A DNA stretch of 64,000 bases from contig NC_043006.1 of the NCBI RefSeq assembly GCF_006345805.1, positions 44,764,001-44,828,000 of the forward strand. Direction: 5' to 3'. The position numbers are program-made. This document shows, one piece after another, positions 54,973 through 57,257 of this stretch. Origin of the DNA: Octopus sinensis (taxonomy: Eukaryota). The stretch's first letter is position 1; every line of letters begins with the position of its first letter.

Positions 54973-55029
<57 letters not shown>

Positions 55030-55031
55030 CA

Positions 55032-55110
<79 letters not shown>

Positions 55111-55446
55111 ATTTGCAGCTAGTTGACTCTCCTTTTACTGAAATTTGCTGAAATCTGAACACTCCCTCTGCTGACTTGCAAAGCTTTGTCTCCCATACAA
55201 CTGCGTTTCTTCCTTCCATGGTTAAATAAAAGTCTATTTCTTGTGTACCAGAACTAGTGGGAAGATGAGTGGGAAAAAAATCTGAGGGATAAGCGCGTAC
55301 GCACACGCACACCTAGTTAGGGAGAACTAAAATGGAATTCAATCTGCTACCGGCATGCAGACCTTGCATTTCCGGTTTTAATACTACTGTATGAAAAATA
55401 AATTTTGGATTCTGGGCTCTATACTCTTGCCTTCTTTCCTAAACTC

Positions 55447-55494
<48 letters not shown>

Positions 55495-55519
55495 ACACTG
55501 ACACACACTGACACACACT

Positions 55520-55586
<67 letters not shown>

Positions 55587-55940
55587 ATTTGCAGCTAGTT
55601 GACTCTCCTTTTACTGAAATTTGCTGAAATCTGAACACTCCCTCTGCTGACTTGCAAAGCTTTGTCTCCCATACAACTGCGTTTCTTCCTTCCATGGTTA
55701 AATAAAAGTCTATTTCTTGTGTACCAGAACTAGTGGGAAGATGAGTGGGAAAAAAATCTGAGGGATAAGCGCGTACGCACACGCACACCTAGTTAGGGAG
55801 AACAGTAGACAAAGAGAACTAAAATGGAATTCAATCTGCTACCGGCATGCAGACCTTGCATTTCCGGTTTTAATACTACTGTATGAAAAATAAATTTTGA
55901 TTCTGGGCTCTATACTCTTGCCTTCTTTCCTAAACTCTAA

Positions 55941-56012
<72 letters not shown>

Positions 56013-56042
56013 ACACTGACACACACTGACAACACTGACACA

Positions 56043-56080
<38 letters not shown>

Positions 56081-56448
56081 ATTTGCAGCTAGTTGACTCT
56101 CCTTTTACTGAAATTTGCTGAAATCTGAACACTCCCTCTGCTGATTTGCAAAGCTTTGTCTCCCATACAACTGCGTTTCTTCCTTCCATGGTTAAATAAA
56201 AGTCTATTTCTTGTGTACCAGAACTAGTGGGAAGATGAGTGGGAAAAAAATCTGAGGGATAAGCGCGTACGCACACGCACACCTAGTGAGGGAGAACTAA
56301 AGAGAACTAAAATTGAATTCAATCTGCTACCGGCATGCAGACCTTGCATTTCCGGTTTTAATACTACTGTATGAAAAATAAATTTTGATTCTGGGCTCTA
56401 TACTCTTGCCTTCTTTCCTAAACTCTAACACACACACACACACATACA

Positions 56449-56483
<35 letters not shown>

Positions 56484-56534
56484 ACACACACACACACTCA
56501 CACACACTCACACACACTCACACACACTCATACA

Positions 56535-56575
<41 letters not shown>

Positions 56576-56626
56576 ATACACTCACACACACACACACTCA
56601 CACACACACACACACACACTCATACA

Positions 56627-56679
<53 letters not shown>

Positions 56680-57257
56680 CAGCCTTCTAGTTAAATTTGA
56701 AAACTTTCATAAAAAGAAAAGAAAGCACAATATCCCATCCCAAAATGAAAGTATCAAATAAAAAGATATAAAAAATATAAAGTAAATTATGGTTGGAAGT
56801 AGCTGCAGTCATCTTCTACCACAGCTTCAAGACGGCTCCGGAACCCGGCGCACCTACCTACCCACCTACCTACATACCTACTTACCTACCTACCTACTTC
56901 GAACGCCTTGATCTTAACCACCAGTTCGGCCTTGATGTTGCAGGTAGAGCGGTGAAAATCTTTGTCGACTGCACCACACACATAGTAATCCGTGAGAAGC
57001 TTTGACTGAGGAAATATATAATAACGTCGAAATACCACGATTTCAAAGTTACTTTACATCAACGAATCACGAGTATTATTAACAACCATCGCCTAGAGGA
57101 GATAGGTGTATTCTGATAATGAAAAACAATACCGATCAGCATAATCACGTTCGAATTTGCTGAAAACATAGAGAGTGAACAGATACACTATTCTTTGAGT
57201 TCTCCATATTCTGCATCTACCTCATCGCGCGTGTGCACACATAAACATATATAAGTA

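What the first reader, a model, noticed from the sequence alone, without database searches (positions are those of the whole stretch)
54975..56696. Frame-asymmetric candidate exon triplicated in tandem between (CA)n tracts
Seen: three copies of a ~340-bp unit, each with an intact acceptor, 115-nt exon and donor, separated by (CA)n of different lengths. The copies differ by real-looking indels next to GGGAGAAC, and the only exonic difference I found is synonymous (Lys). The exon is phase 2 to 0, so including two copies would shift the frame. Inference: (CA)n-mediated unequal crossover is building an exon cassette that needs mutually exclusive splicing or skipping, possibly a nascent alternative-exon array or a copy-number polymorphism.
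Basis: partly seen in the sequence, partly recalled or inferred. Interest (0 to 1): 0.7.

Follow-up and report, generated by a model that had tools for sequence, protein, structure and literature searches.

The report
Non-coding tandem triplication between CA repeats
A roughly 480-base stretch of DNA (a 340-355-base unique piece plus a CA microsatellite) is repeated three times head to tail in a transposon-rich region, and the "exon" seen inside it looks no better than chance, so this is most likely an ordinary young duplication rather than a new exon array.

Summary
Three head-to-tail units (55109-55448, 55585-55939, 56079-56427; 340, 355 and 349 nt) are interleaved with four (CA)n tracts. 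Each carries, on the minus strand, an identical 115-nt AG...GT interval.

The exon reading is not supported.
- The donor (TCA|gtaaaa) scores at the median of all GT dinucleotides in the window. About 590 equal-or-better open AG...GT intervals lie outside the array.
- Pfam, NCBIfam, PHROGs, PDB sequence search and Foldseek give no significant match.
- The open frame runs on past both "splice sites" into (TG)n.
- The differences between copies show no sparing of the "exon" (P about 0.35).
- Among 262 scanned ORFs of the window, the only strong Pfam matches are to transposon families.

The two internal CA tracts share the same interruptions, so unit plus tract was copied as one block.

One loose end: a protein language model rates the peptide protein-like.

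Ordinary; low interest.

The parts
54976..55108 (.). T1, left (CA)n tract: (CA)26 acact (CA)20 gaga (CA)15
   Evidence: TRF, 67 copies, 95% matches. Interruption map.
55109..55448 (.). Unit A, 340 nt. It lacks the GAGAAC-region insertion and has one extra G at alignment column 315.
   Evidence: Alignment A1. blastn self-hits only. Variable columns.
55449..55584 (.). T2, internal (CA)n tract: (CA)20 ta (CA)3 ctga (CA)3 ctga (CA)3 ctga (CA)31
   Evidence: Shares its interruptions with T3.
55585..55939 (.). Unit B, 355 nt. It carries the GAGAAC-region duplication plus a private 6-nt insertion.
55940..56078 (.). T3, internal (CA)n tract: (CA)3 c (CA)30 ta (CA)3 ctga (CA)3 ctgacaacactga (CA)5 c (CA)14
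56079..56427 (.). Unit C, 349 nt. It has three private substitutions (columns 67, 210, 242) and the GAGAAC-region duplication.
56428..56676 (.). T4, right (CA)n tract, 249 nt. It has a ta interruption and repeated ct(CA)4 / ctcatacact 10-mers.
55139..55253 (-). Judged a chance exon-like interval.
   Evidence: sequence, frames. (site scores). (no homology).
55615..55729 (-). Candidate exon, copy in unit B, identical to the copy in A.
56109..56223 (-). Candidate exon, copy in unit C. It carries the AAA variant and is the first copy in minus-strand order.
54361..54606 (.). Dispersed repeat (SINE-like) left of the array, not part of the unit.
   Evidence: Self-blastn: copies at 8 other places in the window, for example 45218-45488, 30073-30363, 12560-12848.
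56904..56990 (-). Transposase fragment right of the array, not part of the unit.
   Evidence: tblastn with the window's own ORF 12180-12533: 45% identity over 29 aa, E = 1.3e-5 in a 5-kb search space.
57334..57721 (.). Second dispersed repeat right of the array.
   Evidence: Self-blastn: 91-92% identical copies at 42219-42597 and 40516-40828, plus others.

Best explanation
This is a young, non-coding tandem triplication. A single-copy intergenic or intronic segment of about 340 nt lay between two (CA)n microsatellites.

Inferred history:
- Misaligned recombination, or replication template switching, between the right-hand and left-hand tracts duplicated 'unit + tract' and created a hybrid internal tract.
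- A second unequal exchange between the two roughly 480-nt copies gave the third copy, which carries the same internal tract.
- Microsatellite slippage, three substitutions and small slippage indels at the GAGAAC motif then made the copies differ.

The 115-nt AG...GT open interval on the minus strand is a chance exon look-alike that was copied along with everything else.

Shown here: the anatomy, the homology of the internal tracts, and the lack of any coding, RNA or splice signal above background. Inferred: the recombination mechanism and the order of events.
For: 1. Three head-to-tail copies with a 476-494 nt period and 97% column identity. Substitutions: 0 between A and B; 3 between C and either of them. 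So the duplication is recent.
2. The internal tracts T2 and T3 share ta(CA)3ctga(CA)3ctga. T4 has a related ta ... ct(CA)4 x3 pattern; T1 does not. The block copied was therefore unit plus tract.
3. The unit occurs nowhere else in the 64 kb (9 of 9 blastn rows lie within the array). The flanks hold no degenerate extra copy (39 to 200 of 200 shuffles score at least as high).
4. Exon-likeness is at background level.
- Donor score is -4.73 bits; 3986 of 7843 GT score at least as high. Acceptor score is 2.26 bits; 305 AG (4.3%) score at least as high.
- Of 1086 open AG...GT intervals of 50-300 nt with both sites at least as good, 590 lie outside the array (the scoring matrix uses generic values recalled from memory).
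- 44% of all 115-nt windows have at least one open frame, and 11.6% have at least two.
5. No homology.
- Pfam: 0 families at E<=10 for 5 peptides. NCBIfam and PHROGs: 0.
- PDB sequence search: best E = 1.4.
- Foldseek: 0 of 390 matches at E<=0.001.
6. No RNA signal: Rfam 0 and tRNA 0; fold z = -0.03 and +0.95.
7. Context is transposon debris. In 262 scanned ORFs of at least 60 aa, the strong Pfam hits are RVT_1 and Exo_endo_phos_2 only. Dispersed repeats and a transposase fragment flank the array.
8. Precedent: three equal tandem segments bounded by microsatellites in the sea urchin Sp185/333 cluster (PMC3091723: abstract, section 22 and passages read).
Against: 1. The ESM Atlas language-model search rated the 63-aa ORF core protein-like.
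- Recognition was 2745. First hit scored 0.97 against an unnamed cluster of 92 bacterial hypothetical proteins.
- A control ORF from 63380-63571 scored 1190 with no usable hit.
- By the tool's own figures, shuffled sequences reach 0.95 about once in 100.
2. The acceptor is respectable: top 4.3% of AG sites.
3. Only 21% of possible changes there would be.
4. AlphaFold2 without an alignment gave a three-stranded sheet at mean pLDDT 65, so the peptide is not obviously disordered junk.
5. No reads, transcripts or rest-of-genome sequence were available. Neither an assembly artefact, nor transcription, nor a dispersed element family can be excluded directly.
6. Exons shorter than 60 codons, or without a Pfam family, would have escaped my scan for neighbouring exons.
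Confidence: 0.75

Rival explanations
1. The 115-nt interval is a real coding exon of a minus-strand gene. Exchange between the (CA)n tracts has triplicated it, and because 115 is not a multiple of 3 only one copy can be included (mutually exclusive splicing or skipping).
For: - AG and GT with a pyrimidine-rich acceptor are conserved in 3 of 3 copies, and the frame is open.
- The acceptor is in the top 4.3% of AG sites.
- The single internal change is synonymous.
- The language model scores the peptide protein-like (against the control).
- Length, splice-site, frame and sequence conservation are the criteria used to predict mutually exclusive exons (PMC3228551; title and start of abstract seen in the listing).
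Against: - The donor sits at the median of all GT sites.
- 3 of 3 conservation is uninformative, because the whole unit is about 99% identical at substitution level.
- No family or structure match.
- The ORF continues through both sites into (TG)n.
- Differences are not depleted in the exon (P = 0.34-0.37).
- No flanking host exons were found.
- No stable RNA structure that could serve as docking or selector pairs.
Confidence: 0.04
2. Assembly artefact. A single unit (or two alleles) was falsely expanded into three copies when reads were assembled across long CA tracts.
For: - Long microsatellites are hard to assemble.
- One of the differences is a 1-nt G/GG length difference (column 315), a typical read-error class.
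- The assembly has at least one gap, at 16607-16706.
Against: - The three copies are all different from each other. They differ by indels of about 10 and 6 nt and by three substitutions. Two alleles cannot give three distinct copies.
- The four CA tracts have individually distinct interruption patterns.
- No gap lies near the array.
Confidence: 0.09
3. Mobile-element origin. The unit is a non-autonomous element that targets (CA)n microsatellites and inserted three times, or it is the internal tandem-repeat region of a larger non-autonomous element.
For: - Elements that insert specifically into AC microsatellites are known (MinoAg1), and others are found in or near CA tracts (Waldo-A and Waldo-B). 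Source: PMC3812793, passages read.
- The unit is bounded by the same microsatellite on both sides.
- The window is full of transposons.
Against: - No other copy exists in the window, although 7 other AC/CA/GT tracts of TRF score >=100 are present.
- No reverse transcriptase, endonuclease or transposase similarity.
- No pol III A box within 1 mismatch and no B box within 2 mismatches (motifs recalled from memory).
- All three units have identical ends.
- T2 and T3 share their interruptions, which independent insertions would not produce.
Confidence: 0.08
4. Relic of coding sequence. The open frame is a decayed fragment of an old gene or transposon protein that happened to lie between two CA tracts and was duplicated passively.
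For: - The language-model score (against the control).
- A modest AF2 beta-sheet model.
- The motif EIDF...WETK resembles, from memory only, the core of PD-(D/E)xK nucleases. The rank-3 Atlas cluster carries DUF4143 in 42% of its members.
Against: - No profile or structure match anywhere.
- Smith-Waterman scores against 5 transposase-like ORFs of the window are not above shuffles (206 to 956 of 1000 shuffles score at least as high).
- The rest of the unit has 4 to 9 stops in every frame.
Confidence: 0.04

Closest known systems
Microsatellite-bounded tandem segmental duplications (sea urchin Sp185/333 cluster; PMC3091723)
   Same: Three equal head-to-tail segments, each bounded by the same microsatellite. 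The authors attribute them to microsatellite-promoted duplication, and the paper also cites template switching between microsatellites.
   Different: There each segment is about 4.5 kb and contains a real, expressed gene. Here each is about 0.48 kb with no detectable gene, and the microsatellite is (CA)n rather than GAT or GA.
Minisatellite-like tandem repeats grown by unequal crossing-over (general knowledge, recalled)
   Same: Head-to-tail copies, high identity, and length variation between copies caused by slippage.
   Different: Only three copies. Each period is a composite of unique sequence plus a long dinucleotide tract.
Tandem exon duplication with mutually exclusive splicing (PMC3228551, PMC9013439, PMC6071210; only titles and abstract starts seen, in the listing)
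   Same: Tandem copies of an exon-sized interval with the same length, the same AG/GT boundaries and the same frame. A length that is not a multiple of 3 would penalise double inclusion.
   Different: No host gene, no protein homology, a weak donor, no competing RNA structure, and no selection signature.
Microsatellite-targeting non-LTR retrotransposons (MinoAg1 at AC repeats; Waldo at ACAY repeats; PMC3812793)
   Same: An insert with the same AC-type microsatellite on both sides.
   Different: No element ORFs or promoters, no dispersed copies in the window, and the tract interruptions were duplicated together with the unit.

Membership tests
Tandemly duplicated, mutually exclusive exon array | Lies inside a transcribed gene, between constitutive exons | tested here: inconclusive
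   Of 262 ORFs of at least 60 aa scanned, the only strong Pfam hits are RVT_1 and Exo_endo_phos_2. Short or family-less exons would be missed. No transcript data were available.
Tandemly duplicated, mutually exclusive exon array | Copies encode homologous, recognisable protein segments | tested here: not met
   The copies are homologous to each other, but no protein family or structure matches. Only an unaligned language-model lead exists.
Tandemly duplicated, mutually exclusive exon array | Functional splice sites, better than background | tested here: not met
   Acceptor is in the top 4.3% of AG sites. Donor is at the median of GT sites (3986 of 7843 score at least as high). 590 comparable intervals lie outside the array (scoring matrix recalled, not trained on this species).
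Tandemly duplicated, mutually exclusive exon array | Exon evolves under purifying selection relative to its introns | tested here: inconclusive
   1 of 6 difference events falls in 115 of 340-356 positions, binomial P = 0.34-0.37. There are too few differences to decide.
Tandemly duplicated, mutually exclusive exon array | A mechanism enforcing single inclusion (frame incompatibility or competing RNA structures) | tested here: inconclusive
   115 mod 3 = 1 would give frame incompatibility. There is no stable structure: z = -0.03 on the minus strand.
Microsatellite-mediated tandem segmental duplication | Head-to-tail copies of high identity | tested here: met
   Three copies, spacing 476-494 nt, 97% column identity.
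Microsatellite-mediated tandem segmental duplication | The same microsatellite at both outer edges and at every junction | tested here: met
   Four (CA)n tracts at 54976, 55449, 55940 and 56428.
Microsatellite-mediated tandem segmental duplication | Junction tracts are copies of one another, or hybrids of the outer tracts | tested here: met
   T2 and T3 share ta(CA)3ctga(CA)3ctga. Their 5' parts resemble T4, and they join the next unit exactly as T1 does.
Microsatellite-mediated tandem segmental duplication | Copy number varies between individuals, or the ancestral locus is single-copy | not testable with these tools
   No reads, no other individuals, and no related genomes were available.
(AC)n-targeting retroelement (Mino-like) or its non-autonomous partner | Element-encoded RT and endonuclease, or a pol III promoter | tested here: not met
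   Pfam gives 0 families. No A box within 1 mismatch and no B box within 2 mismatches (motifs recalled).
(AC)n-targeting retroelement (Mino-like) or its non-autonomous partner | Dispersed copies at other (AC)n tracts | tested here: not met
   None beside the 7 other AC/CA/GT tracts in this window. The rest of the genome was not available.

The most novel reading that the evidence does not exclude
The 115-nt interval is a true lineage-specific exon with no detectable relatives, belonging to an unannotated minus-strand gene. It has been caught just after (CA)n-mediated triplication. The (UG)n-rich introns would then decide which single copy is spliced in. That would be a snapshot of the birth of a mutually exclusive exon array.
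Probability: 0.04. Interest if true: 0.55.

Novelty: already known. Interest (0 to 1): 0.12.

Why it matters
As it stands this matters little. It is one more example of microsatellites seeding small tandem duplications in a repeat-rich animal genome. It may be useful as a copy-number marker, and it shows that AG...GT open intervals in AT-rich DNA are common.

It would become interesting only if transcript data showed the interval is spliced. The locus would then show a tandem exon array at its very first step, before the copies have diverged.

Tried and rejected
Tried, with nothing found
- Homology of the candidate peptide, searched exon by exon only. I used the 38-aa frames 0 and 1, and the 63-aa stop-to-(TG)n core of each copy. 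Results: Pfam 0, NCBIfam 0, PHROGs 0. PDB phmmer gave 0 hits for the 38-aa peptide, and 3 serpin hits at E = 1.4-1.8 over 13 residues for the 63-aa core.
- Structure: AF2 single-sequence model, mean pLDDT 65.2. Foldseek against PDB gave 390 matches at E<=10, none at E<=0.001, best 0.34.
- RNA gene: Rfam 0, tRNA 0, folding no better than shuffles.
- Degenerate fourth copy in the flanks: none.
- Transposase relic: a tblastn match of the unit to a mariner-like ORF at E = 9 looked suggestive. It did not beat shuffles, so I rejected it.
- Link to the LINE element 1.3 kb away on the same strand (50287-53614): no shared sequence. The second LINE copy is 5'-truncated, so its 5' region could not be compared. 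I dropped this.
- Taxon: a literature search for a 25-nt string of the window's SINE-like repeat found 0 papers. The organism remains undetermined.

Not done
The frame consequences of multiple inclusion were read from the per-copy frames. The second copy would be read in frame 0, which is open. The third would be read in frame 2, which has two stops.
Relatives of the peptide in large protein sets therefore stayed unchecked.
- Genome contigs and search_dna_similar were not used, because they hold prokaryote, phage, plasmid and E. coli DNA only.
- Complex prediction was not relevant.
- Supplementary files of papers were not consulted.
- Rows dropped before counts. Of 355 ORFs of at least 60 aa, 87 low-entropy ORFs (under 3.6 bits) were removed. 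Of the remaining 268, 6 were not scanned; they lie at 37226-37931 inside the second LINE. That leaves 262 scanned.
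Full report
WHAT IS THERE

Reading 54500-57300 and running Tandem Repeats Finder show four (CA)n tracts:
- T1 54976-55108
- T2 55449-55584
- T3 55940-56078
- T4 56428-56676

They separate three copies of a unique segment: A 55109-55448 (340 nt), B 55585-55939 (355 nt) and C 56079-56427 (349 nt). MAFFT gives 356 columns with 97% mean column identity. The repeat finder gives start-to-start spacings of 476/494 and 492/488 nt. TRF, whose longest period is 500, did not report the long period itself.

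A blastn of the units against the whole 64-kb window returns only the array: 9 of 9 rows. The window has one N run, at 16607-16706, far from the array.

I enumerated every 115-nt interval bounded by AG and GT on both strands. Exactly one is shared by all three copies, and it lies on the minus strand:
- Coordinates: 55139-55253, 55615-55729 and 56109-56223.
- Boundaries: ...cccactag|TTCTGG...ATTTCA|gtaaaagg.
- Frame 1 gives [38 protein letters not shown]. Frame 0 is open too. Frame 2 has two stops.

The only internal difference is at alignment column 67. On the minus strand it reads AAG in A and B and AAA in C, which is Lys/Lys in frame 1.

The other differences are:
- a substitution at column 210;
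- an indel of about 10 nt (A against B and C) and a 6-nt insertion private to B, both next to GGGAGAAC;
- a substitution at column 242;
- a 1-nt indel at column 315.

IS IT AN EXON?

(a) Splice sites. I scored all AG and GT sites of both strands with generic metazoan frequency tables. These were recalled from memory and not trained on this species, so the result is a rough yardstick.
- The acceptor (2.26 bits) is in the top 4.3%; 305 AG sites score at least as high.
- The donor (-4.73 bits) has neither G at -1 nor G at +5. It sits at the median: 3986 of 7843 GT score at least as high.
- Intervals of 50-300 nt with at least one open frame and both sites at least as good number 1086. Of these, 496 lie in the array (mostly because of GT in the (TG)n tracts) and 590 lie elsewhere.

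(b) Openness. 44% of all 115-nt windows of this sequence have at least one open frame, and 11.6% have at least two. The stop-to-stop ORFs that contain the interval are 120, 134 and 147 aa long. They run past both proposed splice sites and on through (TG)n as VCVCVC.

(c) Homology. I searched the interval on its own and never as a joined product.
- Pfam 0, NCBIfam 0, PHROGs 0.
- PDB phmmer: nothing below E = 1.4.
- An AF2 single-sequence model has three strands at mean pLDDT 65.2. Foldseek finds 0 of 390 matches at E<=0.001.

(d) Selection. One of six difference events lies in the 115 nt, which is 32-34% of the unit. Binomial P(<=1) = 0.34-0.37. 21% of possible single changes in frame 1 are synonymous, so one synonymous change carries little weight.

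(e) Neighbouring exons.
- Of 355 ORFs of at least 60 aa, 268 passed a low-complexity filter and 262 were scanned against Pfam.
- In 38-64 kb (112 ORFs), the hits are RVT_1 at 1.5e-30, Exo_endo_phos_2 at 5.2e-13, HTH_48 of the Mos1 transposase at 0.0019, and seven weak singletons.
- In 1-38 kb (150 ORFs), the hits are RVT_1 at 4.6e-29 and DDE_3 at 0.0053, plus two marginal families: PEN-2 (two members, best E = 0.001) and Pex24p (one member).
- No host-gene domain reached a convincing score.

(f) RNA. Rfam has no match at gathering threshold and there are no tRNAs. Folding of unit B gives z = -0.03 (minus strand) and +0.95 (plus strand). Nothing resembles docking or selector pairing or a structured RNA gene.

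THE ONE RESULT THAT POINTS THE OTHER WAY

The ESM Atlas feature search on the 63-aa core gave recognition 2745 and a first hit of 0.97 (195 of 256 features). The hit is an unnamed cluster of 92 bacterial hypothetical proteins. Rank 3 (0.95) is a cluster in which 42% of members carry DUF4143. A control ORF of similar length from 63380-63571 gave 1190 and no usable hit.

The tool itself says such scores are leads with no alignment or E-value, and that shuffled sequences reach 0.95 about once in 100. The motif EIDF...WETK reminds me of PD-(D/E)xK nuclease cores, but that comes from memory and nothing tested here supports it. I record it as unexplained (note).

HOW THE ARRAY AROSE

Compressing the tracts gives:
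- T1 = (CA)26 acact (CA)20 gaga (CA)15
- T2 = (CA)20 ta (CA)3 ctga (CA)3 ctga (CA)3 ctga (CA)31
- T3 = (CA)3 c (CA)30 ta (CA)3 ctga (CA)3 ctgacaacactga (CA)5 c (CA)14
- T4 = (CA)8 tacac (CA)16 c (CA)7 ct(CA)4 ct(CA)4 ct(CA)4 ctcatacact ...

T2 and T3 are evidently copies of each other. Their 5' parts resemble T4: a ta interruption followed by a 10-nt periodic interruption. They join the next unit exactly as T1 does. This fits the following history, which is inference:
- An exchange or template switch between T4 and T1 duplicated unit plus tract.
- A second unequal exchange between the two copies produced the third.
- Slippage in the tracts and at GAGAAC followed.

With 0 substitutions between A and B and 3 between C and either of them, the events are recent.

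The flanks contain no decayed further copy. They are made of a SINE-like dispersed repeat at 54361-54606 and another at 57334-57721, plus a transposase fragment at 56904-56990.

RIVALS

Assembly stutter. This is unlikely because the three units and the four tracts are all mutually distinct. It cannot be excluded without reads.

A (CA)n-targeting mobile element. Such elements exist (MinoAg1; PMC3812793, passages read). Against this reading here:
- The 7 other AC/CA/GT tracts in the window carry no copy of the unit.
- There are no element ORFs or pol III boxes.
- The three units have identical ends.
- The tract interruptions were duplicated with the unit.

A decayed transposase. This was tested against five transposase-like ORFs of the window and did not beat shuffles.

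COMPARISON WITH WHAT IS KNOWN

The closest described case I found is the sea urchin Sp185/333 cluster. There, three equal tandem segments are bounded by GAT microsatellites, and the authors propose microsatellite-promoted duplication (PMC3091723: abstract, section 22 and passages read).

Tandem exon duplication with mutually exclusive splicing is well described. For PMC3228551, PMC9013439 and PMC6071210 I saw only the titles and abstract starts in the listing. The present locus meets none of its testable criteria beyond the trivial ones that any recent duplication meets.

VERDICT

The structure is real in the sequence and ordinary in kind. It is a young microsatellite-bounded tandem triplication of non-coding DNA in a transposon-rich region. 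The exon-cassette reading is not supported, though it is not strictly excluded (about 4%). Interest is 0.12.

Noticed in passing
window 30454-32029: A purine-rich minisatellite of 59/118-nt units (about 28 copies, 75-80% matches), with GC skew +0.62 in that 2-kb bin. It produces spurious 391-551-aa Pro/Ser/Leu-rich ORFs on the minus strand.
   Followed up: no
window 18721-19086, 21116-21932, 49079-49443: A 184-nt SINE-like unit, containing a GAGTTCAAATTCC stretch, occurs as short tandem arrays of 2.0, 4.4 and 2.0 copies at 90-95% matches. Small tandem arrays of repeat units are therefore common in this window.
   Followed up: no
window 50287-53614 (-) and 35513-37864 (+): A near full-length non-LTR retrotransposon: an ORF1-like frame at 53171-53614, then a 272-aa and a 528-aa ORF at 52141-52959 and 50541-52127. 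Among the scanned ORFs of 38-64 kb, one matches Exo_endo_phos_2 and one matches RVT_1; the scan does not say which member matched. A 5'-truncated relative lies on the other strand. The first lies 1.3 kb from the array on the same strand but shares no sequence with it.
   Followed up: partly
window 33029-33860: A 415-nt segment duplicated in tandem at 99% identity, next to or within a transposase-like ORF at 32707-33213. This is another very young local duplication.
   Followed up: no
window 53725-53819 and 54047-54138: A 95-nt direct repeat (84% identity) spaced about 320 nt apart, just upstream (on the minus strand) of the LINE ORF1. It could be repeated 5'-UTR monomers.
   Followed up: no
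window 57258-57822: The dispersed repeat at 57334-57721 sits between a (TATC)19 tract at 57258-57333 and an (ATCT)26 tract at 57721-57822. This is a second case of a unit bracketed by the same microsatellite motif. The microsatellite context of its other copies was not examined.
   Followed up: partly
window 56904-56990 (-): A short transposase fragment (DYYVCGAVDKDFHRSTCNIKAELVVKIKA). It is 45% identical over 29 aa to the window's ORF 12180-12533, with E = 1.3e-5 in a 5-kb search space.
   Followed up: partly
window 55109-55297 (-): The 63-aa ORF core of the unit scores as protein-like in the ESM Atlas: recognition 2745, first hit 0.97 to unnamed bacterial hypothetical proteins. A control ORF does not. 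No alignment-based method finds a relative.
   Followed up: partly
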